Virus record (IMG/VR): IMGVR_UViG_3300042908_000811
Coordinates: 1-64,000 of that record
Source of the DNA: a virus
Taxonomy: Duplodnaviria; Heunggongvirae; Uroviricota; Caudoviricetes
Direction: 5' to 3' (one strand)
Length of the DNA: 64,000 bases
Both the position numbers and the translations under genes were made by a program. Below are positions 1-17,225 of this stretch, one piece after another; positions within the stretch are counted from its first letter, which is position 1; every line of letters begins with the position of its first letter. A model generated the notes under the pieces. That model had not been told where the DNA came from and made no database searches. It saw only the letters and a program-made list of their open reading frames with translations.

Positions 1-87
1 ATGTCGATAATATGGTAAGTTATAATCGGTACCACCGGCACAAGATTCAATCCGTGCGTCAATGGAAGGTCAAATGGATCACCAAAA
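1..87. repeat. Left copy of an 87-bp perfect inverted repeat (partner 39405-39491); truncated by window edge
   Basis: reverse complement of 1-87 is identical to 39405-39491 base by base. Confidence 0.8.
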
Positions 88-245
88 ACGTCCCAGTGAT
101 ATAGAGATTTCACGCCAGAAGGAGAAATTACATACCCGCAAATTGGATATTCTATATCTTTATTGATATAACAAATTTGAAATTCCCAACCAGCGGCAGT
201 TATACATTTTCCCCCAGCATTGACAAAATCAAGAATTGTGAGCAT
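1..245 (-). CDS. partial ORF (N-terminus MLTILDFVNAGGKC... at 245, runs off left edge through the inverted repeat)
   Basis: ATG at 245-243 minus strand, open to window edge. Confidence 0.3.
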   Translation of the reverse strand, partial: MLTILDFVNAGGKCITAAGWEFQICYINKDIEYPICGYVISPSGVKSLYHWDVFGDPFDLPLTHGLNLVPVVPIITYHIID

Positions 246-540
246 TCAATTTCTCCATAGCAAATTTAAGAGATTCATTTAACCTATCAATAAAAGTAGT
301 ATCTTTAGAGCGAATAAGGTTTTCTTTCAATTCAACTATATTTTTATCACAAGGATCTTCTAATACCTTATTCAAAAGAGTATTATTCATTTAGATACGA
401 TCTCAAAAATTTTAGTTCCTATAGCAATGAATAACCAAACCCAACCAATAATAAATTTATAATTAGTTTCATTATTAGCAGAAGCAATCCAAACTTGAGA
501 AATGATTATACAAGTATAAAAGAATAATTTACTTTCCATT

Positions 541-1158
541 CTAAGTCCAATTTTCCCAAGATTCTAAATTGAAACTAAGGCGAAGATAAATCTTAGGATC
601 ACCTTCATACTTATTACATTCTACCCTAAAACCACCACATTCTGTAGTATAATCCGTTTCTTTAGATTTAAGACATTCGGTTACAGCAGTATTCATTAGT
701 TTTCTAGCGTGTTGGCGAAGTTCATAAATTTCAGGAACTCCATTAGAACCAAACCATTTCCAATTAAGAAAATCCATTACCTTCTTAACTTTTTCGAAGT
801 TGAAGTTATCAAGAATTTCATTAATATCATTGGTTGAATCATTATAGACCGTCTTCTTCGGTTCAATACTCCATCTATAATTTAATTGATCAAATTTTGA
901 GGTTTCGATATCTTCTGGATTTGTCAATAATAAATCATACCAAGGAGTAACATAATCCACATTTAGTCGATATCTAACCTTATCACCTCGTTTATACGCA
1001 TCAATCAATGATTGAGTAAACTCGTCCGGTTTAACCCGATATTCGATATTTTCAAACCAATGCGGGGTTGGAGTATCTACCCAACCAAAATGTTCTTTTA
1101 CTTGAATAGTTTTTCCGTCTGCCCATTGCTTAATCAAATCTTTATGTTTATGCGCCAT
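541..1158 (-). CDS. hypothetical protein 205 aa
   Basis: ORF track; long ORF in minus-strand gene train. Confidence 0.5.
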   Translation of the reverse strand: MAHKHKDLIKQWADGKTIQVKEHFGWVDTPTPHWFENIEYRVKPDEFTQSLIDAYKRGDKVRYRLNVDYVTPWYDLLLTNPEDIETSKFDQLNYRWSIEPKKTVYNDSTNDINEILDNFNFEKVKKVMDFLNWKWFGSNGVPEIYELRQHARKLMNTAVTECLKSKETDYTTECGGFRVECNKYEGDPKIYLRLSFNLESWENWT

Positions 1159-2121
1159 TACTTATTCTCCAATGTTTCAATTTTATGTTTAATACTATCC
1201 ATTATCTCTAGGATTTTATCAACCTCTTGATTGGTCTTTTGAATCAACAGAAGTTGTTCAGTTTCTTTCTGTTTAGCAAAATAAATCTTTTGCCCAATCC
1301 AAACAGCATTGGTAATCATAGCAAGACTTAGTACAAAATAGAAAAGCTTTTCGTTCATATACACCTCAAAAATTCAACAACAAGTATAGTCTACCGTAGA
1401 ACGAAGAAAAAGTCAAGCGATTAGCAACCTTCTGAATTATCTTCTGGAGAAATTGCTGGAGTACATTCTTGAAATGTTGTTTCTCCATAACGTCTTGAAT
1501 AATACCATTTCTTATTACAAGTAGTACAAGTCGTTTCTCCAGAGGTAGTATTACCGTCAGGATTGGTATTATTCCCATGCTTATCGTAAATTGGAGGATA
1601 ATACATGGAAGTAGTCATTCCAATACCGTATTGAAATCTGCAATCTTCTCTTGGGCAATTTGGGTTTGGATTATTCATTGTTAAACCTCGTCAAAATGTC
1701 TTTCTAGTTTATGTTCTTGAATATAAGAACAATAATCAAAAGTATGAGATTCTCTAACTGTAGCAGCAAAATAAAACAATAACAATAAACGACTTACTTC
1801 ATAGGCAGTAATATCTTCTTTGGGATTATACTCATATCGTTTATCTCCATTAGGAAATACAATATGCCCAACAGAAATTTTACCGAAAAAGACGCCAATA
1901 TCTGCGTAGGCACTATCAATTTTATTTTCCATCATCAACAACTCCAATTATCTTACAATGTTTGTCTCTAGGTAATGCTTTTTCACATTCTTTTATTGAA
2001 TCATGGTACTCCGTGAGAGGAGATGAAACCATTCCAACAGAAACCACTATACCCAATAAAAACGCTAAAACTATATTTACGACGGAAATAACAAAACTAA
2101 AATCATTCATCTTTGTTAAAC

Positions 2122-2601
2122 CTAAAACTTTTCTTCAGTCGTTATCAGAAGTTGGTTAGTTTCTTCGTCAAAAGAAACATTAACCCAGTCATCCTTTGAA
2201 ATAGGAAATCTATGAATGATATCGCCAGAGCGGAATTCTACTTCTTCTGCCGATCTAAATTTAGAAAATTCTATTCCACCGTAAATATAGTTGTGGAGAT
2301 TTAGATATCCGCAGTTCATGCCAATACCATATGAATCCATGTAGAAATTAAATACGTCGTACAAAACGTGACGATAACTACCCTGTTCTTCTACATCGCC
2401 TTTATGAATCTTAGAACATACATAAAAGAATGCTTTTAGTTTATCATCATAGGATAGATTATCCCAGAACGATTCGGCATCCTTCTTATATTGTTCGTCA
2501 GATGCTTCTATTTCTTGGCGCAACTTTTCCATTTCTGGAGAATCAAGCATTTCTTTGAAATTTTTCTTTTCGACTTCGTATATTCCTTTTTCTTCAGACA
2601 T
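2122..2601 (-). CDS. hypothetical protein 159 aa
   Basis: ORF track. Confidence 0.5.
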   Translation of the reverse strand: MSEEKGIYEVEKKNFKEMLDSPEMEKLRQEIEASDEQYKKDAESFWDNLSYDDKLKAFFYVCSKIHKGDVEEQGSYRHVLYDVFNFYMDSYGIGMNCGYLNLHNYIYGGIEFSKFRSAEEVEFRSGDIIHRFPISKDDWVNVSFDEETNQLLITTEEKF

Positions 2602-2604
2602 AAG

Positions 2605-3003
2605 TTAATCTCCTAAAACATTCCAAAATCTAAATTGTTCAGACAGTTTTTCTATTACGATATATTTCTCATCACTAGTAAGATTTTTCATTCGATTTTC
2701 TACTACCTTGGTAATATCATCACAAATATCATCATATACTTCATAGGGATCAAAAGTATTAAGATCATCTTCTGATATGTTAAAAATCCTAAAAAATTCT
2801 TCATTATCTATATTTTTTAGAAATGATTCTTTTATTGGTTTTACTTCTTCTTTCTCTAGTAGATCATAAAGATATGTTAAATATGTTACAGATAACCCAA
2901 TATAATATGTATCTGTTTGAATGCTTCCGTGAATCGCTTTTAGATTATTGATTAGATCAGGAATCTGGTTTCTAAATTCGCTCATTTTCCAACCTTTTTC
3001 CAA
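2605..3003 (-). CDS. hypothetical protein 132 aa
   Basis: ORF track. Confidence 0.5.
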   Translation of the reverse strand: MEKGWKMSEFRNQIPDLINNLKAIHGSIQTDTYYIGLSVTYLTYLYDLLEKEEVKPIKESFLKNIDNEEFFRIFNISEDDLNTFDPYEVYDDICDDITKVVENRMKNLTSDEKYIVIEKLSEQFRFWNVLGD

Positions 3004-4059
3004 GAATCATTACGAATATCCAAATCTACAACCTCTCCCCAGATACGCCAGTAGTTGGGGATTTTATCTGGATGGCATCCACGAAAATGTTTCTTATCAA
3101 TTCCCATCGCATCTGATAGAAACTGTTCCACATCATCCCAATTATAATATTCTAAGGTTTGAGGTTTCATAATTTAATGCCCCAAGATTCTATAAATTTT
3201 TTGTTAATAAAAAGTTCAAGGAAATCCGTATAATACATGTCTGTTACGTATCCTCCTGCAAATGTAAATAGAAAGTAGTCTCCTCTTATTCCCTTCACCA
3301 CTAATTCTTGTCTCAAGGTATCTTCGGAATCAAAGGGGTAAAATACCAATGTATCTCCAATTTGAGGACAAGGAGCAAGTCGGAATAACCACCAGCGTTT
3401 AATCCTCCACCACATAAATTTCTATCTTACTTTTTTTGTAGGCAAACAAACTTATATTCTTTCACGGTTCCTCCAACCAATGGATTCCCCTCTTGTCCTG
3501 CTTTTTGACAAGATTCTAATGTAGAAAACCCATCAACAGAATTAAGAGCAACACTATCTCCTTTAGAGAAGGCTCCAGCATAAATAAACATCACTAATAC
3601 ATAACTCATTCATCATCTCCATAAATAAACATCTCAGGAACAGCATCACCCTTTTTCATTGAAATTTCATACTTATTAAGAATTCTATCAAACTCAACGA
3701 TTCCAACCGTCTTACATTTGAGAGCGTGTTGCCTAAATCCACAACCTTCTGATAATACTAGAGGATAATCCTTAAAACGTCTCCAAGATTCATACCAACC
3801 TTCGCTCACAAACATAGCACACCAAAGTTTTTCAAGATGCGTAATCATTATTTTCCTCAATAAAAGAATAATCTTCTTTATCATTGCCATTAACATAAAC
3901 AGGAATTATGTCATATCCTCTATTCTTCCAATATTGATGGTCAAATTCAGTTTCTATGAATACTGGTCCGACAGGTTCAGATTTTTGATTACCAAAAAGA
4001 TAAGGACCAAAATTACCATCACCAACAACAAACCAACCTATTTGTTCCATATTATTTAC

Positions 4060-4509
4060 CTAAGAAAAATATCTTGAAGAAAAGGAGTACCCATCTTCAT
4101 CGTGCCAATAAACATCCTCGTCCCGATATTCTCTCCAAATGTCAGCATACCTTTGTTCTTTTAGAATTTCATCAATGTGATCTAAATTCCTATGCCCATC
4201 GTCACGAACAAAACCAGGAGATTTATAGGTTTCTACCATTTCTACAAATTCTTCATACGAAACAGCCTCGCCGTATTCATCAATGATAGGATTATCCTTG
4301 AGATATTCTTTCCATTGCTTCCAAGACTTTAGTTGAAAGTCTTCTGGAACTTCTAAAGTCTTGTCATCGCTGTCTTCAATATACCCATATTGTCCATCAT
4401 ATCCTCTGAAGTGGAAAGCCCAACCCCAAGAACTTTTGCCGATGTGAATTTTATTGGAACGATTACAACATTCGCATTTGTTGAATTCTGCGTAAAAGTT
4501 AGTGCCCAT
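4060..4509 (-). CDS. hypothetical protein 149 aa
   Basis: ORF track. Confidence 0.5.
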   Translation of the reverse strand: MGTNFYAEFNKCECCNRSNKIHIGKSSWGWAFHFRGYDGQYGYIEDSDDKTLEVPEDFQLKSWKQWKEYLKDNPIIDEYGEAVSYEEFVEMVETYKSPGFVRDDGHRNLDHIDEILKEQRYADIWREYRDEDVYWHDEDGYSFSSRYFS

Positions 4510-4639
4510 ATTTCACCTCTAAATTTCACTTTATATAAATAGTATATACCCATCGGGTAAAAAAGTCAAGTCATAAAAAATGTCCTTCGCGGATCACCAC
4601 AATCCCAAGGACTCTAACGCTTAATAGGAGCATCAGCAT

Positions 4640-5554
4640 ATGTATTTATTTGTCTATAAAACTACACACATCAATGGAAAATATTATATTGGTCGCCATC
4701 AAACCAATGATATAAACGACGGGTATCTAGGATCTGGTAAATGGGTTTCTGGAATAAAAGATAAATTAACTTTATCAAGAGAAATCATCGCAGAAACGAA
4801 TTCAATTAAGGAATTATACGAATTAGAAGAATATTATATAGAAAAATATTGGAATGATCCCTTATGTATGAATATGATTAAAGGATCTAATGGTTATACT
4901 TCAGAGGACAATTTTAGAAAAATCGTAAAAGGAACTCATCCTTTTCAGTCGAGAGAAGATGGAACTTCCTTACAAACGGATCGTGTGAATGCTGGAACTC
5001 ATCATTTGTTAAAAAGAGAAGATGGTTCTTCTTTAACACAAGACAGAGTGAAAGAAGGAACTAATCCTTTTCAGTCGAGAGAAGATGGAACTTCCTTACA
5101 AACTGACCGTGTGAATGCTAGAACTCATCATTTGTTAAAAAGAGAAGATGGAAGTTCTGTTGCATCCGATAGAGTGAAAGAGGGAACTAATCCTTTTCAG
5201 ACGAGAGAAGATGGAACTTCCTTACAACAAGATAGAGTCAATTCTGGAACTCACAATTTTTTAAAAAGAGAAGATGGAACTTCTGTTTCATCAGATAACA
5301 ATCTTAAAAGAGTTGCAAATGGAACTCATAATTTTCTAACAAGATCGGATGGAACGAATTTACAAACCGATAAAGTTGCAAATGGAACTCATCTTTTCCT
5401 ACAAAATAAGGGTTTGGTTCCGTGTTATAATAAACAAGGAGAATACAAACGAATTCCAAAAGAAAAATATCATTCCCAAGTCGGGCTAAAGGAAGATTGG
5501 GAATGGGTGCATAATTTGAGCAAAGAAGGCAAGAGAAGAAAACCTTCGTTTTAA
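4640..5554 (+). CDS. GIY-YIG homing endonuclease (Seg/I-TevI-like) with about 8 tandem 21-aa C-terminal repeats
   Basis: N-terminal VYKTTHINGKYYIGRH...GYLGSGKW GIY-YIG motif; repeated GTHxFxxREDGTSLQTDRV units; lone plus-strand gene in minus block. Confidence 0.7.
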   Translation: MYLFVYKTTHINGKYYIGRHQTNDINDGYLGSGKWVSGIKDKLTLSREIIAETNSIKELYELEEYYIEKYWNDPLCMNMIKGSNGYTSEDNFRKIVKGTHPFQSREDGTSLQTDRVNAGTHHLLKREDGSSLTQDRVKEGTNPFQSREDGTSLQTDRVNARTHHLLKREDGSSVASDRVKEGTNPFQTREDGTSLQQDRVNSGTHNFLKREDGTSVSSDNNLKRVANGTHNFLTRSDGTNLQTDKVANGTHLFLQNKGLVPCYNKQGEYKRIPKEKYHSQVGLKEDWEWVHNLSKEGKRRKPSF

Positions 5555-5929
5555 AGGATTATTCAAAACTCCAATAGTTTATTAGAAATTTCTTCAAGAT
5601 CAGTTGCATTCACTGTCAATACATCTGTTCCGATAACCAAACGAAATTCTAAAAACGCAGGAACACTAATCAGGACAATAGGAGCGAGGCCATGACACAT
5701 GAAGGTATCGACTTTTCCCTGATCGTATTTTGATTTTGATTCCTTATCATCGTGATATGTGTCACGGATATGATTCGCATATTGTACATTCTTTTTGATG
5801 AATTCTGCGAAAGAGTTATACATAGAAGAATCCATTCTAAATTGAGAGCAAGTAGGAATAGATTCCGCTCTATCATTGAATACACCAATCTGTAGAAATG
5901 CGTAACTAACTTGTTTTACAATAATCATT

Positions 5930-6184
5930 TTATTCACATTGTCCTAATAGCATTGCTTCTATTTCTGTAAACTTCTCTTGTACAGGAAATACTTTACCAG
6001 AAGTCAGATGTACGATAGCATTTCCTCTGTAGATTTTATTCTTAAACCGTTCTCCTGTTTCTGGATTGAAGTTGAATGCCATTGGTCCAGTGACCGCAGC
6101 AACTTGATCCTTGTGGAACATTATCTTTCCACAAACTTCTTCACCATACTCGGTAATACGAATTGCTGTCAATTTTATAAACAT
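5930..6184 (-). CDS. small early protein 84 aa
   Basis: ORF track; own conserved promoter upstream. Confidence 0.5.
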   Translation of the reverse strand: MFIKLTAIRITEYGEEVCGKIMFHKDQVAAVTGPMAFNFNPETGERFKNKIYRGNAIVHLTSGKVFPVQEKFTEIEAMLLGQCE

Positions 6185-6230
6185 TTTAGCTTCCTCATTT
6201 CAATCTACTGTAAAGTTCCAACCACAAGAC

Positions 6231-6258
6231 TATTTTACTACAATTTATAGAAAAGTCA
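6231..6258 (-). promoter_or_regulatory. early promoter TTGACT-16-TAAAAT plus conserved leader AGTCTTGTGGTTGG
   Basis: minus strand reads GATTGACTTTTCTATAAATTGTAGTAAAATAGTCTTGTGGTTGGAAC..GAGGAAGCTAAATG. Confidence 0.6.
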
Positions 6259-6444
6259 ATCGTCCTTGTCCAAGTCCCATGCGTATTTTTCTGCATAATT
6301 CAACCGATCCATATGGTCTACAAATTTTTCGCAAAGAGCATACACATTTTTCAGCGAATGAAAATCGTCTCCAGCAAGTTGAGCTTCGAGGTCTGACATC
6401 CTATCGGCATTTGCCACGTAATTTACATAATCCTCAAGCGTCAT
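6256..6444 (-). CDS. small protein 62 aa; near-identical inverted paralog of 49305-49502
   Basis: MTLEDYVNYVANADRMSDLEAQL... vs MTKMTLEDYVNYMANADNMSDLEAQL...; same CAACTGGAGAAACGAAATG leader. Confidence 0.6.
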   Translation of the reverse strand: MTLEDYVNYVANADRMSDLEAQLAGDDFHSLKNVYALCEKFVDHMDRLNYAEKYAWDLDKDD

Positions 6445-6539
6445 TTCGTTTCTCCAGTTGATTTCTAACTATGGGACTATTGTATCTGAACTGACAGGGA
6501 AAGACAAGGTTTTTCTTTCGGGGTTGCCGTAATCATTTT

Positions 6540-6740
6540 TCAAAAAATATCTTTTGAAGATGTTTCCAAAGCTTGAAGTCCATCTTCTTCTGAATCGAAA
6601 TACCCATCCACATAATAATACATTGGTTCTCCATTTTGATGTGTCAAAAACGGTCCGTATGCCCCAATCCAATACTTGCCGTCGGACTCAAACAGCGCAA
6701 CTTCGTTAGTTTCGTTGTGGTATTTTACGAATCTTGACAT
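6540..6740 (-). CDS. small protein 66 aa with cassette-type promoter/leader
   Basis: upstream minus strand CCTTGACTTTCCC..GATACTATAGTCCCATAGTTAGAAATCAACTGGAGAAATCAAATG. Confidence 0.5.
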   Translation of the reverse strand: MSRFVKYHNETNEVALFESDGKYWIGAYGPFLTHQNGEPMYYYVDGYFDSEEDGLQALETSSKDIF

Positions 6741-6974
6741 TTGATTTCTCCAGTTGATTTCTAACTATGGGACTATAGTATCTGAACTGACAGGGAAAGT
6801 CAAGGATTTTCTTTCGGGGTTGCCGTAATTTCGCAATGTTGATTTCTTGGAAGCGTTGATTCGCATTCTTCGATTGCTTTTTGTGTTTTTGAAACAACGG
6901 TGAATGGTAAACTAACAAAAAGATCAATCAATATTATTGCAAAAGACATACCAAATAAAAATGTTGGAGTATCT

Positions 6975-7241
6975 TTATTCATCATTGACCTTTTCATATG
7001 TCATTTCAAAAATATCTCTACGACAAGGATAGATTTCTTCTTTCACCCCTTTGATAATATAATCTCCCGATTGAGCTATCATTCGTCCTTCAAGAGTTTC
7101 AATGAACAAAGTTCCACCCACATTTGGAACAACTTTCTCTTCAACAACGGCATCAACAAACCATTCTGGAAAAGAAATTGCTGCCATTTCGTAATACCAA
7201 ATAAAGGCATCAATTTCAACTGGTTTCTTGCGATATTTCAT
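6975..7241 (-). CDS. hypothetical 88 aa; paralog of 11689-12042
   Basis: shared MKYxKKPxEIDAxxW...TLEG...GDxIIxGVKxExYxCxxDIFxMTYEK pattern. Confidence 0.55.
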   Translation of the reverse strand: MKYRKKPVEIDAFIWYYEMAAISFPEWFVDAVVEEKVVPNVGGTLFIETLEGRMIAQSGDYIIKGVKEEIYPCRRDIFEMTYEKVNDE

Positions 7242-7738
7242 TTTGTGATTCTCTTTAATCTTTCTTCAAAAGTTAAATCTTCATCAAGACTTAATTTAGT
7301 TAAGTCGTATTTTGTATTTTCTTGGATTCTATCGAATATTGGTTCTTGTGGTTCTTGTTTTCTTTTTAGAATACACCAAATATCAGAACCATAAATTGGA
7401 TCATCAATCCAAAGATCATATAACTGTCGTAGTTCTTTTACTTCGATTTCTTCATCATCAGAACATCCCCGAGCGAATAAATCATTACAGTTTACGAACA
7501 ATCCAGTTGTTTTCTTTGCTTCTTCGCACCAATCATCTTCCCACCAATGATTGGTTACAAATATTACCCCATTGATCAATAAATGAGCAAGACCAAATTC
7601 TTCTTCGAAGTTTAATTCTTTTTCTGGTTTGTTTGGATATGTTTGAGAACCGTCTTCATTTTTATATTTTCCCCAATCCAGTTCCCAGAAAATGCGTTTT
7701 GGGTCAATTTCATATTTTAAATCTGGATTGTATTTCAT
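7238..7738 (-). CDS. hypothetical protein 166 aa
   Basis: ORF track; ATGA overlap with downstream gene. Confidence 0.5.
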   Translation of the reverse strand: MKYNPDLKYEIDPKRIFWELDWGKYKNEDGSQTYPNKPEKELNFEEEFGLAHLLINGVIFVTNHWWEDDWCEEAKKTTGLFVNCNDLFARGCSDDEEIEVKELRQLYDLWIDDPIYGSDIWCILKRKQEPQEPIFDRIQENTKYDLTKLSLDEDLTFEERLKRITK

Positions 7739-7920
7739 TTTACAAAATCTCTGGATTGTTTGGAGTATCCAAAATCAAACTAGCAATTATTTCTTTTCTA
7801 ACTTGAGTTTCAAGCACCCTAGCAAACGTATATACATAAGGATTCAAATCCATCGAACCATCTGGCTGTTCTTTGAGTTTGAATCCTTGTTCCAAAGCCA
7901 TTCGTTTAATAGTTGATCTG

Positions 7921-8436
7921 TCAATCATTTACTTTCTCCACAAATTCAATATCAGTTTTCTTGTATCTAAGATGGGTGTGTAATGCCAAACTATCATCCA
8001 TTCGTTGTAGTAATACAGTTTTTTCTGTTACTTCAATAATTTTTTGTTCTGTTAAACAACTTGCTCCTTGTAGTTTAACAAACCATTTGTCACCAACCTT
8101 CAATTCTGGAGGAACAACAAAAGGCGTTGGAATATATGCCGTTTTACTTGATGTAGTTGGTGGAATTCCTGCAAAAGTATGATCTGTAATAGGAGTTCCA
8201 TTCCAAGGAGCAGTCATTGAATCTGGTAAAGGTTTAATATATGTCATTTGTTCATTGTCTTTAGATTTTAAATATTCTTGAAATTCTTTTTCCATTCCTT
8301 CCGAATAATAGACTGGATACCACTCTCCCCCATTCTCCATTTGTTCCCAATCATCTTCAAAATTTCTTCTATATAGACTACCATCATCATCTTCGATGAT
8401 ATGAGATTGTATTGGTTGTATTTTTTTAAATTCCAT
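7921..8436 (-). CDS. hypothetical protein 171 aa
   Basis: ORF track. Confidence 0.5.
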   Translation of the reverse strand: MEFKKIQPIQSHIIEDDDGSLYRRNFEDDWEQMENGGEWYPVYYSEGMEKEFQEYLKSKDNEQMTYIKPLPDSMTAPWNGTPITDHTFAGIPPTTSSKTAYIPTPFVVPPELKVGDKWFVKLQGASCLTEQKIIEVTEKTVLLQRMDDSLALHTHLRYKKTDIEFVEKVND

Positions 8437-8483
8437 AATTCTTTTTCATCCTTTAGCAATAACTGCAACATTTACAGAAAAAG

Positions 8484-8915
8484 TCAAGGTTTATCATTTC
8501 GGGTTTCTATTTCTTTTATGGCATCCTTGAGTGTTTCTGAAAAATTCAATGCAGTCTGCTTTGTAAGAATAGTAGTAGTTTGTAGAGAAATGTATCCATT
8601 CCACCAAATTTCTTTGGTTAGTTTAATTCGTTGATGTAATCCATTGATTAGCGATTGAACGGAATTTACAATGAGATATAAGAACGGATTGTCAATCTTA
8701 TGAGTTTCCCAATTCGCTAAAGTTTTCCACCAATGAGTTTTTGCAGTGGTATGAAAATATACTACGATTTCTCCATACTCGTCGGCTTCTATTTCAAGGT
8801 CAATCTTATCATCTGGATTAGTACACGAACAATTTACTGAATAAAACTTAGCATCCTTGAAATCGTGAGTTAGCATTATACCTTCTGCTGGTTTTTGATA
8901 TTTTGATTTAGTCAT
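8484..8915 (-). CDS. hypothetical protein 143 aa
   Basis: ORF track. Confidence 0.5.
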   Translation of the reverse strand: MTKSKYQKPAEGIMLTHDFKDAKFYSVNCSCTNPDDKIDLEIEADEYGEIVVYFHTTAKTHWWKTLANWETHKIDNPFLYLIVNSVQSLINGLHQRIKLTKEIWWNGYISLQTTTILTKQTALNFSETLKDAIKEIETRNDKP

Positions 8916-9123
8916 TAAATTCTTTCTTCCACATATCAGGATAAACTTCTGAGGTCAAGTCCATTACCCATTGGCAAGGATAATGGCGCAAACACGATAT
9001 TGCTTGTTGTCTAATGTGTTTAGGAACTTTTGGAGTCTTTTTTGGATCAAGTAAATCTAACAGAAACTTTTCTGTTTGAACAACTGACCTGTATCTTTCT
9101 GAACTTATAGTCATGATCTTTTC

Positions 9124-9786
9124 CTATTTTCTCATGGCAGGTCTGAATGAGTATTTCTTATCAAACCCAGCATATTCAATTTTAAATTTATCATCCAACA
9201 CTACTGGCGGATCAATATCGGGGCTACCATTAATTTGGTTTAACATAAAGTAAGAGATATCCTGATAGATTTGTTCAGCGGGATACATTGATACAAAGTT
9301 AATAATATCACCTAGAATCGGAGTATCTGTAGTAAATCTGCCACCCTCAATCACAACTACAGGAGATTTGTGTTTAATGCAGAAATCAAGATTCTTTTGA
9401 GAAAACTCGCCCATATAGTATTCAGGAGTTTTCCTAGGATAAACCTCCCATCTACTACGTTTTCCTTTGAGAAGATTTAGATGTTTTTCTACTTCTGTAG
9501 AATTTTTATAAGCAGTCCATATTTGAGTTTTTGGATATTCGCTTTTTCTGAATAGAAGAAATTTCTTCCCGCAAACAATCAACCAACGGAAATCGTAATC
9601 ATATATAGTATTAGCGAGCCTAAGAACAAGATCAACTTCATCATTTTTAATCTTAGAATCATCATTAAAATATATTTGAGAAAGATCGTTTAATAGATGG
9701 CGCTCATAGACTACTTTTGGATCAGGACCACCAAAATTTGTAGAATAGAAATCGTAATAATCTTTAAACTTCGTTATAATTTTCAT
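9124..9786 (-). CDS. hypothetical protein 220 aa
   Basis: ORF track. Confidence 0.5.
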   Translation of the reverse strand: MKIITKFKDYYDFYSTNFGGPDPKVVYERHLLNDLSQIYFNDDSKIKNDEVDLVLRLANTIYDYDFRWLIVCGKKFLLFRKSEYPKTQIWTAYKNSTEVEKHLNLLKGKRSRWEVYPRKTPEYYMGEFSQKNLDFCIKHKSPVVVIEGGRFTTDTPILGDIINFVSMYPAEQIYQDISYFMLNQINGSPDIDPPVVLDDKFKIEYAGFDKKYSFRPAMRK

Positions 9787-10004
9787 CTTCGGTAATTTCT
9801 ATATCAGAAGCACCAATATCCCAACCATCCACCTTAATCCAATCTTCGGTTTTGTAGGTGTTTGGGATAGTGTGATAGACAATCATCTTCTCTCCAGATA
9901 AACCATGAGTATCAGAACACTCAGAAACTTGGAAACCAATGGATACATTATACTTTTCTAATAACGCTTTGAATTCTTGCTGAAAAGTTTCTTTGTTGTT
10001 CATT

Positions 10005-10199
10005 TTATACCTCAATTTCGTTTACATACGAAACGTCAATAAAATATCTTGAAGATTCAAGACACAATTTTTCTGCCTTTTCTTTATCAGAAAAGACACC
10101 TTGAACGGAAGCACCCATTCCACGATCTTCTTCCAGAACAACATACAAAACATCAGGTTCTTTTACAATTTTCATTTCAGTCTCCATTTTTCCAACCAC
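10005..10199 (-). CDS. small protein, member of the MKV..V.Y../GVF.SxEKA family
   Basis: MKIVKEPDVLYVVLEEDRGMGASVQGVFSDKEKAEKL resembles 17547-17866 and 51149-51854 ORFs. Confidence 0.5.
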   Translation of the reverse strand: MVGKMETEMKIVKEPDVLYVVLEEDRGMGASVQGVFSDKEKAEKLCLESSRYFIDVSYVNEIEV

Positions 10200-10205
10200 A
10201 AGACT

Positions 10206-10233
10206 ATTTTACTACAATCCACAGAAAAGTCAA
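10206..10233 (-). promoter_or_regulatory. early promoter TTGACT-16-TAAAAT plus AGTCTTGTGGTTGG leader
   Basis: minus strand CGCTTGACTTTTCTGTGGATTGTAGTAAAATAGTCTTGTGGTTGGAAAAATGGAGACTGAAATG. Confidence 0.6.
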
Positions 10234-11456
10234 GCGTTGAGAGGATGATAGGAAAAATGTCTTCCTAAGTTGTGTTCTTGCAAGAATTCTTCTACCTTAA
10301 GAGATCCATATAACGTAATGGTAGTTACAAAAAACAGTTGCATTAAGCGAGATAATTCGTAAGGCGTTATATCTTGTTTTGGTTCGTATACAATCCGAAA
10401 ATTCTTTGTATAGATATTCAAATCACTGATAGGAATATCAGCGGCAGATAGTCTATCACCATCATATTTTTCTTTTACTGTTTCAATCATTGTATGTGAT
10501 ACCTGTCAATAAGTTTATGATAAAAGTCCAATAAAGGACCACAAAGTTCTAACGGAGTTTCTTGGTAATGTTCTTGAAGTAATTCGTGAACATCTGTTAT
10601 GATTAGTTCAGCAAACTTTTCTTCATTGAATTCTGGATGAATACCTCCCCAACCATCATCAACAATAACAGTTGCTTTTTGTTTCAATTCTTCGAATATA
10701 TCAATCATAATCTATATTACTTAGTATTCGAAGTGTAATTCATTTTAAACAAAATAGAAAACAAAAAACTAATTCCCCACATTTGCAACCAACCAACTTC
10801 TTTCAAAATAGTTACCGCAGGAACCAAACAAGAATTCCAAAGTATCATTATAGGATAAGAAAGCAGAAAACTAAAAAATATAGCAACAACAAAAATTCCA
10901 ATTATATTTCCAATTATATTATGTATCATATATTTACCTAATTTAATTATAATCAACGTTCCAATGAAATTTACCCAAAATAAAACAAAATCGTGGAGAA
11001 TCGTACCAGAAAAATTCACAAGCAAAAAATGGTTTGCCTTTCCAAGTATTCCATCCGAAATAATGATTACCATCTTTCATAAGATAAAACATATCTTTCA
11101 ATGATATATTATCAGGATTAAGAATCAGTCTTGTCCATTACTCAATCGACTTTAAGATCATTCAACATATTTAATGACATAATCACATAAACATCATTCA
11201 ACCTTTTCAAGAAGTTTTTTTAATCTTTCATTTTCTTTTTTCAAATCAGTAAGATAATTGCCATATCCATTGGTTACGTGTCTACAAGATTCATTCAAAC
11301 AAATAAAATCTGCTGTTTCCCACAGAACTCCCAAAATTTGAAATTCTTTAGATTGCATGTTCTTTTTAGAAAATTTGTGCATCATTTCTGAAGGAGCAGA
11401 TACTTCCATTAATACCATTGCATTGGTAGAACCACCACATTTTTCACAATTAAACA

Positions 11457-11705
11457 TTATTCAACTCCAAAATGTTCTTTAATCTTTTCGCCTAACCATT
11501 CTCCGTGATAATCATTCTCAACCATTACAGATATACATTCTTGAATAATAAGGTTAGTGAATCTTTCGGAAAATGCAAATGGAATGTACATTCTATCTAA
11601 ATCGCCATATCTGTCTAACTGATCATCAAAACATTCAGTAATAGCAGATATGGTAAGTTTTTTAATTCTTTCGTTCACGGTAAGTTCTTTAATTCTTTCG
11701 TTCAT
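11457..11705 (-). CDS. small protein 82 aa, ...HFGVE family (paralogs 13301-13579, 18162-18386)
   Basis: shared IIQEC/VVQEC/IIEEC core and C-terminal FG(V/I)E/FGVDQ. Confidence 0.5.
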   Translation of the reverse strand: MNERIKELTVNERIKKLTISAITECFDDQLDRYGDLDRMYIPFAFSERFTNLIIQECISVMVENDYHGEWLGEKIKEHFGVE

Positions 11706-12042
11706 TCTTTAACCTATATCTATATGGAATTTCCTTATCAGACATTTTCTTTTCCTTTTCATAAGTCATATTGAATATGTCCTCTTTACAAAGATAATGC
11801 TCTCCTTTAACTCCTGTGATAATAAAATCTCCTTGGCTTACTTCACACCAACCTTCAAGAGTTTTTATTAACCCTTTCCCTTTATAGGAGTTTAAGCAGG
11901 TCGCCAATCCTGCATCAGTTGGATCAGAATATATTCGGTATCCTTCATCATACGCTTCGTGATAGTCAAGTACAGCATTGTGATCTCCGAACGAGAACCA
12001 TTGAACTGCGTCGATTTCTATAGGTTTCTTTATATATTTCAT
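11689..12042 (-). CDS. hypothetical 117 aa; paralog of 6975-7241
   Basis: MKYIKKPIEIDAVQW...TLEG..GDFIITGVKGEHYLCKEDIFNMTYEK. Confidence 0.55.
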   Translation of the reverse strand: MKYIKKPIEIDAVQWFSFGDHNAVLDYHEAYDEGYRIYSDPTDAGLATCLNSYKGKGLIKTLEGWCEVSQGDFIITGVKGEHYLCKEDIFNMTYEKEKKMSDKEIPYRYRLKNERKN

Positions 12043-12384
12043 AATATTACTCGAAAAAAGGGGAATTTATTCCCAAAGAAAACAAATTTGCTTGTTCATT
12101 TGTTTTCCAAATTTCTAACACAAGACTATTGTAAACGAACTCGCAGAAAAAGTCAAGTAGGAGCATCAACCTCAATTGCCCAATGTACTACTTTCCAATC
12201 GCCTAAACAATCTTCAAAAGTATAATTCTCGTCTACGTGGGCTTTTCCAAATTTAGCACACATCTTTTCATACCAAAACGGAAAATAATCTCTACGAATA
12301 TCTTCTTCCGATAAAACCTCTACGATATCAGTATTATTACTTTCATCAAACCAATTTATTTGAAAATACCGCATCTAATTTCCT

Positions 12385-12801
12385 TCAGTATCTATTGGTA
12401 AGTTGATTGCGAATATTACTCTCAAGAGTGAACATCTGATTCTGAAACATAGAGTTAATTGCCTTAACAAGACACGTTCCAATACCTTCTTGGACAGTAT
12501 TATGAATGATTTCATTTATTTCGCTTTCGTGTTCATAGATATATTGCTTGATGATTTCATCAACATTTGGTTGAAGCAATTCCTGAATCATCTGATGGAT
12601 CAACGGCGGTGTGATTTGTTTATTGTTATTATAATGTCCGGTGATGGTAACTTTCTCAGTGAAGAAAACTTCTTCTAGTCCACGATCAATTATCTTCTTT
12701 AGGTCATCGTCTGAAAGAAGATCACCTATAGACTCACGAATCCGAGTCTTTAATTTTTCTTCAAAAGTTTCATTAGTTTGAATTTCATTGCTCATTGTCA
12801 T
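12385..12801 (-). CDS. hypothetical protein 138 aa
   Basis: ORF track. Confidence 0.5.
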   Translation of the reverse strand: MTMSNEIQTNETFEEKLKTRIRESIGDLLSDDDLKKIIDRGLEEVFFTEKVTITGHYNNNKQITPPLIHQMIQELLQPNVDEIIKQYIYEHESEINEIIHNTVQEGIGTCLVKAINSMFQNQMFTLESNIRNQLTNRY

Positions 12802-12847
12802 TCATCTTCCTCATAATTATCATCATATTCAAAAATGTAATTTTTAT

Positions 12848-12918
12848 CTACATATATGTAGAGGTCTCGCGTACTATTAATAGTACGTTTAGAGGTCTCG
12901 CGTACTATTAATAGTACG
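12848..12918. promoter_or_regulatory. palindrome CTACATATATGTAG followed by 2 x 28-bp direct repeat AGAGGTCTCGCGTACTATTAATAGTACG, each with a perfect 16-bp palindrome GTACTATTAATAGTAC (operator-like)
   Basis: read directly in the 140-bp intergenic gap between two minus-strand genes. Confidence 0.5.
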
Positions 12919-12941
12919 AATTGTAGACCATCTACACCAAC

Positions 12942-13304
12942 TCATTTCTCAAACCACCGTATTTTTGAATTGGTTTTTTCGTATTCTTCTACGATTTGGT
13001 CAAGAGTCCATACTTCAGTCGTCTCAAACGTATCTAACCATTTTGAAAAAGTATACCAATCTTCTCCTCTCATAACTGGTAAACTTAATTCTTCACCATA
13101 GGGATAATCAGTGCCTCTAATATCAATTCTACCACCAAACCAATACACTTTTATCTTTTCGTAAGTATATTCATCACCTTTTTTTAAGTGTGGGAATACA
13201 ATAGAATCGCGTTCAAGAATTTTAGTAACAGTTTCTGTGAATCCATTATTTCTGAACCAATCCATAGAAAGCGGACCCATCATATTTGTACTATAAGTTA
13301 TCAT
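12942..13304 (-). CDS. hypothetical protein 120 aa
   Basis: ORF track. Confidence 0.5.
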   Translation of the reverse strand: MITYSTNMMGPLSMDWFRNNGFTETVTKILERDSIVFPHLKKGDEYTYEKIKVYWFGGRIDIRGTDYPYGEELSLPVMRGEDWYTFSKWLDTFETTEVWTLDQIVEEYEKTNSKIRWFEK

Positions 13305-13579
13305 TCAATACCAAAAGTTTCTTTGATGTCATCACGAATAGATTTCAGGGCATCATAGGTCCATTCACACGCCATTTCTCCTGCTGCACTATTGCCGCAA
13401 GGTATTCTATAGGTTTCAATCTTATCTATACATTCCTGTACGACAAGGTCGGTGAATTTTTCTAATTCTGAATCATACTGTGTGCTCCAATCAATAACGG
13501 CATCTTGCGGTTTCCATTCCTCGTCCCGCCAGAAAATGAAACCTGCCTTTTCTGCTAATTCTCTAGCTTTAGGATTCAT
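13301..13579 (-). CDS. small protein 92 aa, ...FGIE family
   Basis: MNPKARELAEKAGF...VVQECIDKI...ETFGIE. Confidence 0.5.
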   Translation of the reverse strand: MNPKARELAEKAGFIFWRDEEWKPQDAVIDWSTQYDSELEKFTDLVVQECIDKIETYRIPCGNSAAGEMACEWTYDALKSIRDDIKETFGIE

Positions 13580-14019
13580 TTTACCACCTTTATTTGATAA
13601 CCTAACAAAGATTCAATCTCTGCTACTGTTAATTCTTTTACTTTAGTGGTCTTCTTGAGAAATTCTTCTTCTGTATATTCTACACCATTCAAATACCAAC
13701 AGCGAGTACCATCAGAATATTCAATAGCGGGGCCATCTTCCCGATGAAGATCGCCATTCAAGTACCAATAACGACTGCCTTCATATGATTCAACAGCAGG
13801 ACCATCTTCTCGATGACACTTGCCATTCAAATACCAAGAACGAGTACCATCAGCATGTTCAAAAGCAGGACCATCTATCCGATGACGCTTGCCATTCAAA
13901 TACCAAGCACTAAGACCATTTGCATATTCAATAGCAGGACCATCTTCTCGGTGGTATTTGCCATTCAAATACCAACCACGGTCGCCATTATCAAAGACTT
14001 TTACAGTGTATTCAATCAT
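13576..14019 (-). CDS. MORN-like (WYLNG..HREDGPA) repeat protein, paralog 1 of 4
   Basis: approx 23-aa repeats GxxRxWYLNGxxHREDGPAxEY; C-terminus KELTVAEIESLLGYQIKVVK shared by all four. Confidence 0.65.
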   Translation of the reverse strand: MIEYTVKVFDNGDRGWYLNGKYHREDGPAIEYANGLSAWYLNGKRHRIDGPAFEHADGTRSWYLNGKCHREDGPAVESYEGSRYWYLNGDLHREDGPAIEYSDGTRCWYLNGVEYTEEEFLKKTTKVKELTVAEIESLLGYQIKVVK

Positions 14020-14321
14020 TTTACCACCTTTATCTGATAACCCAATAATGCTTCAATCTCTGCTACTGTTAATTCTTTAGCTTTAAGGGTTTTCTTGTTG
14101 AATTCTTTTTCTGTATATTCTTCGTCGTTCAGATACCAACGACGAGTACCATTAGTAAATTCCATAGCAGGACCATCTTCTCGGTGAAGTTTGCCATTCA
14201 AATACCACCAACGACTACCATTTGAATATTCAATAGCGGGACCATCTTCTCGATGCCGCTTGTCATTCAGATACCACCAACGATCACCATTATCAAAGAC
14301 TTTTACTGTATATTCAATCAT
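14016..14321 (-). CDS. MORN-like repeat protein, paralog 2 of 4
   Basis: same repeats and shared C-terminus; ATGA overlaps. Confidence 0.65.
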   Translation of the reverse strand: MIEYTVKVFDNGDRWWYLNDKRHREDGPAIEYSNGSRWWYLNGKLHREDGPAMEFTNGTRRWYLNDEEYTEKEFNKKTLKAKELTVAEIEALLGYQIKVVK

Positions 14322-14761
14322 TTGACCACCTTTACTGGATACCCTAATAACTCTTCGATTTCTGCTATTGTAAGTTCTTTTGCTTTGAAAGCCAACTTGA
14401 GAAATTCTTCTTCTGTATATTCTTCATCATTCAGATACCAATAACGATCACCATTTGCATATTCAATAGCAGGTCCATCTATCCGATGACGCCTGCCATT
14501 CAAATACCAACAACGAGTGCCATCAATATACTCACAAGCAGGACCATCTTCTCTATGGAGATTGCCATTCAAATACCAACAACGACTACCATCAATGTAC
14601 TCACAAGCAGGACCATCTTCTCGGTGACGATTGCCATTCAAGTACCAATAACGACTACCATCAGCATCTTCAATAGCGGGTCCATCTTCACGATGTCGCT
14701 TGTCATTCAGCCACCAATAACGAGTGCGATTGTCATCAACTTTTACTGTATATTCTATCAC
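14318..14761 (-). CDS. MORN-like repeat protein, paralog 3 of 4
   Basis: same repeats and shared C-terminus. Confidence 0.65.
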   Translation of the reverse strand: MIEYTVKVDDNRTRYWWLNDKRHREDGPAIEDADGSRYWYLNGNRHREDGPACEYIDGSRCWYLNGNLHREDGPACEYIDGTRCWYLNGRRHRIDGPAIEYANGDRYWYLNDEEYTEEEFLKLAFKAKELTIAEIEELLGYPVKVVK

Positions 14762-15078
14762 TTTACCACCTTTACTGCATAGCCCAACAAAGATTCAATT
14801 TCTGCTACTGTTAGTTCTTTTACTTTAGTGGTCTTCTTGATGAATTCTTCTTCAGTATATTCTTCATCATTCAACCACCACTCACGAGTGCCATTAGTAA
14901 ATTCACAAGCGGGACCATCTTCCCGATGGAGATTGCCATTCAAATACCAACAACGAGAACCATTGGCATATTCAATAGCAGCGCCATCTTCTCTATGCAA
15001 TTGACCATTTAAATACCAATAACGATTACCATTATCATTGACTTTTACCGTGTATTCGATCACTTCACCACCTTTCAT
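14758..15078 (-). CDS. MORN-like repeat protein, paralog 4 of 4
   Basis: same repeats and shared C-terminus. Confidence 0.65.
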   Translation of the reverse strand: MKGGEVIEYTVKVNDNGNRYWYLNGQLHREDGAAIEYANGSRCWYLNGNLHREDGPACEFTNGTREWWLNDEEYTEEEFIKKTTKVKELTVAEIESLLGYAVKVVK

Positions 15079-15119
15079 AATATTACTCGAAAAAGGGGGA
15101 ATTTATCCCCCTTAATGAA

Positions 15120-15986: not shown

Positions 15987-16192
15987 TTTTCACCTTTTTC
16001 TTTAAAATAAACCCAAGCAACAAAAACAACGTGTCCTACAACAAGGAGAAACGCCCAAGTCATACCTAAAACAACATTAATAGTATTAGCAGAAGAAATC
16101 AAATCTGGTAGAGTGACCCTAAATGAGAAAAAATCTACCAACAAAATCAAAATACTAATGCCAAACCAACGCACAAACTTTTCAAAATTCAT
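15983..16192 (-). CDS. small two-helix membrane protein, possible SPFH partner
   Basis: 69 aa with two hydrophobic segments; ATGA-coupled upstream of the SPFH gene. Confidence 0.45.
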   Translation of the reverse strand: MNFEKFVRWFGISILILLVDFFSFRVTLPDLISSANTINVVLGMTWAFLLVVGHVVFVAWVYFKEKGEK

Positions 16193-16193
16193 C

Positions 16194-17207: not shown

Positions 17208-17225
17208 TTTTTTAACTACAAGACT

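What the first reader, a model, noticed from the sequence alone, without database searches (positions are those of the whole stretch)
1..87. 87-bp perfect inverted repeat pairing the left window edge with 39405-39491
The reverse complement of 1-87 is identical to 39405-39491, and the match breaks at position 88/39404. The left copy is cut by the window edge, so the repeat may be longer. The right copy lies just after the zinc-finger gene stop, next to the CGCATAAGTAAT iteron-like array. The left copy lies inside an apparently coding minus-strand ORF that runs off the window. The repeats bracket a 39.4-kb segment that holds the whole minus-strand early block plus the CobS cluster. Inverted repeats this long and perfect suggest recent recombination. 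Options are an invertible segment, a duplicated recombination hotspot or homing-endonuclease target, or an assembly artefact.
Basis: seen in the sequence. Interest (0 to 1): 0.7.

Follow-up and report, generated by a model that had tools for sequence, protein, structure and literature searches.

The report
Tip of a long inverted duplication
The 87-base inverted repeat is real, but it is only the visible tip of something larger: in many independent lake metagenomes both ends of a 39-kb block of this T4-like phage join the same downstream sequence, which points to a long inverted duplication, or a block that exists in two orientations.

Summary
Bases 1-87 are the exact reverse complement of 39405-39491, and the match breaks at 88/39404.

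The figure 87 is set by the window edge. In seven independent metagenome contigs, the sequence beyond window position 1 is the reverse complement of 39492 onward. One contig follows it for 7.4 kb at 99.99% identity. Other contigs carry the window's own join (zinc-finger gene, repeat, 39492 onward). So both ends of the 39,317-bp segment S (88-39404) run into the same sequence, Z. All contigs switch at the same base.

The left copy lies in an intact, conserved 115-aa gene. The right copy is a 3' fragment of that gene, fused to the zinc-finger gene's stop at a 9-nt microhomology. No other flank was found, and no second exit from Z was found out to about 72 kb.

Best reading (about 0.5): each genome carries two inverted copies of at least 7.4 kb flanking S, like a plastid or herpesvirus inverted repeat. 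Main rival (about 0.22): one copy of Z, with S in two orientations at a genome end. Read depth or long reads would decide.

A chimeric assembly and a homing-endonuclease target duplication are not supported. No comparable phage case turned up in three literature searches.

The parts
1..87 (-). Left copy of the repeat (R'). It covers the third base of codon 53, codons 54-81 and two bases of codon 82 of a 115-aa gene, and is cut by the window edge.
   Evidence: In L001-L005, L020 and L022 the sequence continues beyond window position 1 as the reverse complement of 39492 onward.
1..245 (-). The first 81 codons of the conserved 115-aa gene (MLTILDFVNAGG...). The complete gene is seen in L001:10914-11261.
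   Evidence: The family is P0121-P0131, 52-75% identical in related phages, aligned across the repeat.
88..39404 (.). Unique segment S (39,317 bp). It holds the minus-strand early block (about 88-35,000, including the 714-aa CobT-like peptidase, RnlA-like and Rnl2-like ligases, a Band-7 protein and a two-piece tmRNA). It also holds the plus-strand block of cupin, CobS, 331-aa, HNH and zinc-finger genes (about 35,600-39,404).
   Evidence: S is contiguous in the window and in L006, L007, L069 and L070. All 16 contigs read that carry the 714-aa gene have the same divergent neighbour, the cupin/CobS block.
38682..39113 (+). HNH_3 homing-endonuclease-like gene (143 aa), two genes upstream of the right junction.
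   Evidence: Precomputed Pfam PF13392; sequence.
39117..39413 (+). Zinc-finger ORF (called as 89 aa from 39144). Its last two codons and its stop (TTT TGG TGA) lie inside the repeat.
   Evidence: Homologues in relatives end in the same way (..LDSFF*..LDIFY*..LDNFY*) and directly precede the AAA gene.
39405..39491 (+). Right copy of the repeat (R).
39405..39594 (+). Promoterless 3' fragment of the 115-aa gene (codons 54-115 and the stop) fused behind the zinc-finger gene. This is the partial gene copy that marks the repeat border.
   Evidence: P0130 is the same fragment ORF in another strain.
39492..46795 (+). The minimum further extent of the shared sequence. Other assemblies show this stretch following the left end of S as well.
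   Evidence: L004 matches window 2728-1 at 100%, then 39405-46795 at 99.986%. L001 reaches 45334, L020 reaches 45602 and L022 reaches 45627.
39547..39642 (+). Five CGCATAAGTAAT units with flanking short G+C-rich hairpins. Copy number varies between strains. This may be an origin or a regulator-binding array; that is inferred only.
   Evidence: Strain variation is shown.
39777..41169 (+). Promoter-like site, a 76-aa gene (39844-40074) and a 327-aa AAA ATPase (40186-41169). These are the first genes of the shared arm.
   Evidence: family D8; phrog_1250.
39500..50975 (+). A compositionally distinct module (G+C about 0.42, against about 0.33 in S) made of small genes. Each carries a copy of one promoter-plus-ribosome-site family (about 18 copies, 41683-50975).
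   Evidence: (families D2, D5, D6).

Best explanation
The 87-bp repeat is the inner end of a much longer inverted duplication. The genome reads rc(Z1)-R'-S-R-Z1. Both ends of the 39.3-kb unique segment S abut inverted copies of one arm. The arm starts inside the 115-aa gene and continues through the iteron array, the 76-aa gene, the AAA ATPase and the promoter-rich small-gene module. It is at least 7.4 kb long.

The border sits inside a gene. The left arm therefore carries the intact 115-aa gene, and the right arm keeps only its 3' fragment. That fragment is fused at a 9-nt microhomology (TTTTGGTGA) to the native stop region of the zinc-finger gene.

The following steps are inferred, not shown. 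The arms are kept identical by recombination or gene conversion between them. The same recombination should flip S, giving two isomers as in plastid and herpesvirus genomes. The original event was a microhomology-mediated inverted duplication in this lineage, because relatives are collinear and lack it.
For: 1. Left junction. Contigs L001-L005 and L020 and L022 come from seven different JGI samples. All run from rc(window 88 onward) through R into 39492 onward. L004 is 100% identical on the S side and 99.986% identical over 7,391 nt of Z. L001 covers 5.9 kb of Z.
2. Right junction. L006, L007, L059, L069 and L070 carry the zinc-finger gene, then R, then Z. They come from NCBI, JGI (metaSPAdes-style) and ENA (MEGAHIT k141) assemblies.
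3. All contigs switch at the same nucleotide.
4. No third flank was found. All 15 contigs read that carry the S-left 205-aa gene have the same neighbour genes. The seven of these and of the contigs that reach past the repeat all continue into Z. The 12 of 15 contigs tabulated for the S-right 331-aa gene (two shown, ten listed as similar) all continue into Z.
5. All 16 contigs with the 714-aa gene keep S contiguous.
6. Among 5.8 billion proteins, none has the 115-aa gene's N-terminus with a different C-terminus.
7. No contig has more than about 6.4 kb beyond the 205-aa gene, although some contigs carrying it are 50-200 kb long. That is expected if assemblers stop when a path re-enters its own reverse complement.
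8. The 115-aa gene is a conserved family whose conservation runs through and beyond R. The left context is therefore native and the right copy is a fragment.
9. Strain-specific SNPs and iteron copy numbers appear on both junction types. L004 and L006 share one variant, L001, L003 and L007 share another, and L020, L022 and L059 share a third.
10. Relatives L057 and L060 have the 205-aa gene, the 115-like gene, cargo genes, the zinc-finger gene (found in L057 only) and the AAA gene all on one strand. The rearrangement is therefore lineage-specific.
Against: No single assembled molecule shows both arms. All contigs appear to be short-read assemblies, and read depth was not available.

No outer border was found. 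Contigs around proteins at 45.2, 49.8, 51.9, 58.6 and 61.7 kb are all collinear with the window, out to about 72 kb window-equivalent. All differences rejoin as cassette polymorphisms. So either the arm exceeds 33 kb, or the second copy ends at a physical DNA end.

An arm over 33 kb is large for this phage group, whose isolates are about 140-150 kb (record lengths). A fixed DNA end is unexpected for T4-like, circularly permuted relatives (PMC9004378).

Two MEGAHIT contigs cross the right junction unbroken (L069 at 40.8 kb, and L059). ENA contigs also carry the complete 115-aa gene across the left junction. A strict equal-depth fork should break such contigs, although thin k=141 coverage could explain the crossings.
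Confidence: 0.5

Rival explanations
1. There is one copy of Z and two orientations of S. The genome is linear, with S at one end. A short terminal inverted copy of R (87 nt or a little more) recombines with the internal R, so the population holds two isomers, S-R-Z and rc(S)-R-Z. Each isomer contributes one of the two observed junctions.
For: This gives the same assembly graph as the long-repeat model: two ways into R-Z, one way out, and no third flank. It needs no outer border. It fits a unique length of about 150 kb (S plus Z, including the 99.8-kb contig that starts near 51 kb), which is typical of the group. If the window starts at a contig end, 87 nt is shorter than the usual final k of the assemblers that made these contigs (ENA contigs are named k141; I take JGI's to be 127). 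That is easier to explain by a true DNA end. Unbroken MEGAHIT contigs across either junction fit samples dominated by one isomer.
Against: It puts a physical genome end inside a conserved gene. The isomer seen in the window would then carry that gene truncated after codon 81. It needs fixed ends with no concatemer or terminal-repeat junction reads, unlike T4-like relatives reported as circularly permuted (PMC9004378). It needs both isomers to be common across many samples. No invertase or integrase is on record among the called genes of 1-11,158 and 22,727 onward, nor among the six ORFs of 150 aa or more that I scanned in the stretch between.
Confidence: 0.22
2. It is an internal inversion polymorphism between two short inverted repeats in a circular or permuted genome (Y-R'-S-R-Z), where Y is an unrelated flank.
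For: Inversion between short inverted repeats is the simplest textbook reading of the window alone.
Against: It predicts R followed by rc(Y) in about half of the contigs that cross R. None of the 10 fetched loci that cross R's outer end does this, and the window's own right copy also continues into Z. No alternative C-terminus of the 115-aa protein exists in the protein collection. Long contigs stop just past the left end of S instead of running on into Y.
Confidence: 0.05
3. It is a technical artefact: a chimeric join in the source contig, or merely an assembler's contig-end overlap with no biological repeat.
For: The left copy sits exactly at the window edge. Contigs commonly end in repeats.
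Against: Both junctions are reproduced at the same base in at least 12 contigs from different samples, projects and assemblers, at 99.7-100% identity over kilobases. The contigs carry k=127-141 assembly signatures, so real reads must span S-left plus 87 nt plus Z. A contig-end overlap could explain why the left copy stops at 87 nt. It cannot explain the junctions themselves.
Confidence: 0.05
4. It is a short duplication left by homing-endonuclease activity (the HNH gene at 38682-39113). On this reading, a co-conversion tract carried a piece of the 115-aa gene next to the endonuclease cassette.
For: An HNH_3 gene lies two genes upstream of the right junction. Homing endonucleases are active in this genome, as the cassette polymorphism in the tRNA region shows.
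Against: The shared sequence does not stop after a short tract. It continues for at least 7.4 kb. The copies are inverted and 39 kb apart. The zinc-finger gene lies between the HNH gene and the junction and keeps its native C-terminus. An endonuclease cut may have triggered the original event, but that was not tested.
Confidence: 0.05

Closest known systems
Plastid large inverted repeat (quadripartite LSC-IR-SSC-IR genomes)
   Same: Two near-identical inverted copies flank a unique region. The border lies inside a gene, so one border has the intact gene and the other a truncated copy. Plastid copies pair for flip-flop recombination, undergo expansion and contraction (PMC5430533), and give two structural haplotypes (PMC7145664). 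Here the same strain-specific variants are found on both junction types.
   Different: This is a phage, not an organelle. The second border, a 2x read depth and the isomers are not shown here. The arm carries early small genes and perhaps the tRNA cluster, not rRNA operons.
Herpes simplex virus 1 terminal and internal inverted repeats (TRL/IRL) flanking the UL segment
   Same: In HSV-1, sequences flanked by inverted repeats invert very frequently (PMC3147054). From general knowledge, one repeat copy lies at the genome end and its inverted copy lies internally. That layout matches 'two entries, one exit' if the second arm ends at a DNA terminus.
   Different: HSV has defined termini with 'a' sequences and concatemer junctions. 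No terminus or junction was found here. The virus lineage and replication machinery are different.
Site-specific invertible segments of phages (Mu G, P1 C; Gin/Cin/Hin invertases). This comparison rests on general knowledge.
   Same: A segment of a phage genome is bracketed by inverted repeats and can exist in two orientations.
   Different: Those segments are 3-4 kb. They have crossover sites of tens of bp (P1 has 0.6-kb repeats), an adjacent serine invertase and tail-fibre cargo. Here the segment is 39.3 kb of early genes, the shared sequence runs for kilobases, and no invertase was seen.
Long terminal repeats carrying early genes or tRNA genes (XacN1, 66-kb direct terminal repeats with 56 tRNA genes, PMC5852040; T5 and SPO1 from general knowledge)
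   Same: A long duplicated arm is made of many small, individually promoted early genes, possibly with tRNA genes. This shows that tens of kb of duplication are tolerated in large myoviruses.
   Different: Those repeats are direct and terminal, so assemblies close into a circle. Here the two contexts are inverted relative to each other, which direct terminal repeats cannot produce.

Membership tests
Large inverted repeat with homologous flip-flop (plastid / HSV type) | Two inverted copies, kilobases long and near-identical, flank a unique segment. | tested here: inconclusive
   Both junctions of S to the same sequence are shown. The left context is followed for 7.4 kb (L004) and the right for 24.6 kb (the window). 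Both copies on one molecule were not shown, because only short-read contigs were available.
Large inverted repeat with homologous flip-flop (plastid / HSV type) | The repeat border lies inside a gene: an intact copy at one border and a truncated copy at the other. | tested here: met
   The 115-aa gene is intact across the left border. Only codons 54-115 are present at the right border.
Large inverted repeat with homologous flip-flop (plastid / HSV type) | The repeat has twice the read depth of the unique regions. | not testable with these tools
   No reads or coverage values were available.
Large inverted repeat with homologous flip-flop (plastid / HSV type) | There is an outer border where the two copies lead to different unique sequences, or to a terminus. 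| tested here: not met
   No second successor was found from 39.4 kb to about 72 kb. All variants rejoin the window sequence.
Large inverted repeat with homologous flip-flop (plastid / HSV type) | Both orientations of the unique segment are present. | not testable with these tools
   This needs reads longer than the arm.
Site-specific invertible segment (Gin/Cin/Hin type) | An adjacent serine invertase, or a tyrosine recombinase. | tested here: not met
   No resolvase or integrase family is on record for the called genes of window 1-11,158 and 22,727-50,000. None was found in my Pfam and PHROG scans of the larger ORFs, which cover six ORFs of 150 aa or more in 11.2-22.7 kb. Small ORFs in that stretch were not scanned.
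Site-specific invertible segment (Gin/Cin/Hin type) | Short crossover sites, with identity ending at the sites. | tested here: not met
   Identity continues for kilobases beyond the 87 bases in other contigs.
Direct terminal repeats (T5 / SPO1 / XacN1 type) | The copies are in direct orientation, giving one predecessor and one successor in a collapsed assembly. | tested here: not met
   The shared sequence has two predecessors that are the two ends of one contiguous segment in opposite orientation.
Assembly chimera | The junction is present in one assembly only and is not reproducible. | tested here: not met
   The same junction bases occur in at least 12 contigs from different samples and assemblers.
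Homing-endonuclease co-conversion duplicate | The duplicated tract is short and limited to the endonuclease's flank. | tested here: not met
   The shared tract is at least 7.4 kb and the copies are inverted, 39 kb apart.

The most novel reading that the evidence does not exclude
A freshwater T4-like phage, related by gene content to pelagimyophages and carrying a two-piece tmRNA, has a plastid-like or herpesvirus-like genome. Two inverted arms of tens of kilobases would carry the early small-gene module and perhaps the whole tRNA cluster. They would flank a 39-kb unique segment that flips by homologous recombination, so every population is a mix of genome isomers.
Probability: 0.2. Interest if true: 0.8.

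Novelty: new variant of a known kind. Interest (0 to 1): 0.55.

Why it matters
If each genome carries both arms, this would be a large tailed phage built like a plastid or herpesvirus genome. My three literature searches found no comparable case among tailed phages. Known phage inversions are small and enzyme-driven, and known long phage repeats are direct. Three consequences would follow.
- The early small-gene module, which resembles a host-takeover module, would be present at double dose.
- Recombination would constantly homogenise the arms and isomerise the genome.
- Short-read assemblies of such phages would systematically end in hairpin-shaped graphs. Completeness tools that look for direct or terminal repeats would misjudge them.

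If instead the segment simply exists in two orientations at a genome end, it is still an unusually large polymorphic inversion in a phage. It would also be a caution for reading metagenomic phage contigs.

Tried and rejected
**Searches that found nothing**
- DNA searches of the window ends against 50,697 phage records, in near and distant modes, gave no match. No isolate is available for comparison.
- Exact-pattern scans for the repeat in viral contigs, metagenome contigs and genome contigs gave 0 hits. Those collections do not hold these contigs.
- Protein-guided scans of genome contigs found nothing. Scans of viral contigs with the 205-aa and 331-aa proteins also found nothing.

**Candidate outer borders, all rejected**
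- L012 diverges at 53766, just before tRNA-Val. This is a homing-endonuclease cassette polymorphism that rejoins the window at 54591.
- Contig ends near 45.2-45.3 kb, 50.17-50.2 kb and 51.0 kb are explained by cassette insertions or deletions, such as a 39-aa gene at 50205 and a deletion of 51484-52291.

**Models rejected**
- Two strains, one lacking the CobS block: every contig with the 714-aa gene has the CobS block next to it.
- Direct repeats flanking an insertion: the early block and the CobS block are divergent neighbours, not tandem ones.
- The 98%-identity variant arm with a 113-aa gene as the 'other copy': its marker variants occur on both junction types, so it is a strain.

**Checks that did not discriminate**
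- The G+C and promoter-module end near 50.9 kb is a natural candidate for the arm's end, but no fork is there.
- Folding the iteron region gave nothing significant (z = -1.4).

Full report
**1. The observation**

Bases 1-87 are the perfect reverse complement of 39405-39491, and the match stops at 88/39404. The left copy lies in a minus-strand ORF that starts at 245 and runs off the window after 81 codons. The right copy starts 9 nt before the end of the zinc-finger ORF 39117-39413. That ORF's last two codons and its stop (TTT TGG TGA) are therefore repeat sequence. Five exact CGCATAAGTAAT units follow at 39547-39642, against 0.28 expected by chance. Only the inner end of the repeat is a real boundary. 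The outer end is the window edge.

**2. What lies beyond the window edge**

The window has no DNA-level relative among 50,697 phage records. Its proteins, however, occur on many metagenome contigs.

- Contigs carrying the 205-aa protein of 541-1158 (L001-L005, five JGI samples) match window 11158-1 at 99.95-100%. They then continue, through the repeat, into window 39492 onward. L004 is 100% identical over 2,728 nt of S and 99.986% identical over 39405-46795. L001 reaches 45334.
- L020 and L022, from a strain about 98-99% identical, do the same.
- In these contigs the left ORF is a complete 115-aa gene: the 81 codons seen in the window plus the 34 codons encoded at 39492-39594.

**3. The window's own join is equally reproducible**

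Contigs carrying the 331-aa or 714-aa proteins (L006, L007, L069, L070) and L059 have CobS, the 331-aa gene, HNH, the zinc-finger gene, the repeat, the 76-aa gene and the AAA ATPase in that order. They are 99.7-99.99% identical to the window. They come from NCBI and JGI deposits and from ENA MEGAHIT assemblies. An alignment of ten junction-bearing loci with the two window copies shows two upstream contexts...GGGACGT| and ...TTGAAGAC|. Both switch to the common sequence TTTTGGTGATCC... at the same base. A chimeric join in one assembly is therefore excluded.

**4. The shape of the evidence**

Call the unique 39,317-bp segment S (88-39404) and the sequence from 39492 onward Z.

- S is contiguous wherever it is seen. 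All 16 contigs read that carry the 714-aa gene have the divergent cupin/CobS block next to it.
- Both ends of S lead into R-Z.
- No other flank appeared in any of the loci fetched, neither next to S-left nor next to S-right.
- A search of 5.8 billion proteins found the 115-aa protein, its strain variants and more distant homologues. It found no protein with the same N-terminus and a different C-terminus.
- Some contigs carrying the 205-aa gene are 50-200 kb long, yet none has more than about 6.4 kb beyond that gene. An assembler would behave this way if its path re-entered its own reverse complement.

This rejects an ordinary internal inversion with a distinct flank. It also rejects a two-strain deletion model.

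**5. The missing outer border**

I looked for a point where Z leads to two different continuations. I used contigs around proteins at 45.2, 49.8, 51.9, 58.6 and 61.7 kb, with 17-23 contigs read for each of the first four. All are collinear with the window and with its extension to about 72 kb.

Every difference rejoins the window sequence, so each is a cassette polymorphism:
- a homing-endonuclease cassette replacing 53766-54591;
- a 39-aa gene inserted at 50205;
- a replacement at 46932-47983;
- a deletion of 51484-52291.

One 99.8-kb contig starts near 51.0 kb and runs rightward. The shared sequence therefore has two entries and, as far as I could see, one exit.

**6. The border itself**

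The 115-aa gene belongs to a conserved family, 52-75% identical in related phages. Conservation runs through the repeat (residues 54-81) and on to about residue 103. The left context is therefore native, and the right copy is a promoterless 3' fragment.

The zinc-finger protein keeps a C-terminus like its homologues..LEDFW* here, against ..LDSFF*..LDIFY* and ..LDNFY* in relatives. The two contexts share TTTTGGTGA at the switch point. This looks like a microhomology-mediated join that left the zinc-finger gene intact.

Relatives place these genes on one strand:
- L057 (AAA protein 72% identical) has the 205-aa gene, the 115-like gene, two cargo genes, the zinc-finger gene, the AAA gene and Z-like genes in that order.
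- L060 has the 205-aa and 115-like genes, then about 3 kb, then the AAA gene.
- L056 and L063 have the zinc-finger gene directly before the AAA gene.

The arrangement seen here is therefore specific to this lineage.

**7. Which genome structure?**

Two structures give this same assembly graph.

(a) Two inverted copies of the arm in every genome, rc(Z1)-R'-S-R-Z1. This is like a plastid inverted repeat or the HSV-1 repeats around UL. It explains the following without extra assumptions:
- the intact and truncated gene pair at the borders;
- the perfect identity;
- the same strain variants turning up on both junction types;
- the absence of any third flank.

Its weakness is the missing outer border. 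Either the arm exceeds 33 kb, or the second copy ends at a DNA terminus.

(b) One copy of Z, with S at a genome end in two orientations. This needs no outer border and fits a unique length near 150 kb. However, it puts a DNA end inside a conserved gene. It needs fixed ends without junction reads. It also needs both isomers to be common everywhere.

Gene content is T4-like:
- an RnlA/gp63-like ligase and a CobT-like peptidase;
- an Rnl2-like RNA ligase;
- CobS, closest to that of Pelagibacter phage HTVC008M;
- a two-piece alpha-type tmRNA.

Related isolates are reported as circularly permuted (PMC9004378). That argues against fixed ends. Unbroken MEGAHIT contigs across either junction argue mildly against an equal-depth fork. 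I put (a) at about 0.5 and (b) at about 0.22. Only read depth or long reads can decide.

**8. What it is not**

- It is not a Gin/Cin-type invertible segment. No recombinase was found, the identity runs for kilobases, and the segment is 39 kb of early genes.
- It is not a direct terminal repeat of the T5, SPO1 or XacN1 kind, because the two contexts are inverted.
- It is not a short homing-endonuclease co-conversion tract. The neighbouring HNH gene could still have supplied the initiating break.

**9. Comparison and novelty**

Large inverted repeats that homogenise, shift their borders into genes and flip the enclosed unique region are well known in plastids (PMC5430533, PMC7145664). HSV-1 sequences flanked by inverted repeats invert in the same way (PMC3147054). 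Very long direct repeats carrying tRNA genes exist in phage XacN1 (PMC5852040). Three literature searches found no tailed phage with kilobase-scale inverted repeats around a unique segment of tens of kb. The absence of a hit is weak evidence. I rate this a new variant of a known kind. Interest is moderate to high, limited by the unresolved global structure.

Noticed in passing
window 29584-29989 (-): A two-piece (permuted) alphaproteobacterial-type tmRNA gene sits inside the early block. Rfam tmRNA_permuted scores 104.8 bits and alpha_tmRNA 68 bits. ARAGORN gives the tag ANDSKFALAA. This suggests an alphaproteobacterial host. Such genes are known in Melnitz-like and pelagimyophage-like phages (PMC9004378).
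   Followed up: partly
window 53421-59884 (+); L012, L033-L041: A cluster of 23 tRNA genes by ARAGORN (Rfam adds two weak extra matches) is interleaved with homing-endonuclease-like ORFs (53930-54762, 56878-57672, and the T5orf172-type ORF at 58624-59193). In other strains a 227-aa NUMOD-like endonuclease cassette replaces 53766-54591, which removes tRNA-Val and tRNA-Arg.
   Followed up: partly
window 41683-50975 (+): About 18 copies of one promoter-plus-ribosome-site unit (CTTTACTTCCT..GTAGTATCCTATAGTTGTAGTC..GGAGA..ATG) each precede a small gene. A related family lies on the minus strand in S (for example 19140-19206). The region 39.5-50.9 kb has G+C of about 0.42, against about 0.33 elsewhere in the window.
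   Followed up: partly
window 52610-52699 and 52831-53051: There are three copies of a 30-nt tandem repeat and about 18 copies of a 12-nt tandem repeat (GGAGAATCTTTT-like), just upstream of the tRNA cluster. Their length differs between strains, and many contigs break or overlap there.
   Followed up: no
window 6221-6446 vs 49312-49537: A second inverted repeat of 226 nt at 89% identity. It is a paralogous small gene with its promoter, present once in S and once in Z. In the alternative junction context the two would be direct repeats about 16 kb apart.
   Followed up: no
window 13576-15169 (-): A series of 300-440-nt direct repeats at 60-79% identity, corresponding to tandem paralogous genes of 101-147 aa. 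At least one contig (L001's) starts near here.
   Followed up: no
window 4640-5554 (+), repeats at 4929-5306: This is the only sizeable plus-strand ORF inside the minus-strand block (304 aa). It contains six copies of a 63-nt tandem repeat.
   Followed up: no
window 39547-39730; L001-L007, L020, L022, L059; protein P0137: The iteron array and its flanking G+C-rich hairpins vary in copy number between strains, by extra 19-nt or roughly 46-nt units. In one ENA strain a deletion there fuses the 115-aa ORF to a 134-aa product.
   Followed up: partly
L052 (ENA k141_1116105) and L057 (JGI 3300043338): In one relative the 115-like gene is followed directly by the Hydrolase_2 gene that sits at 61700 in this window. 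In another it is followed by a collagen-like/Peptidase_S74 gene and a 2OG-Fe(II) oxygenase. The site downstream of this gene is therefore a hotspot for gene-order change in the group.
   Followed up: partly
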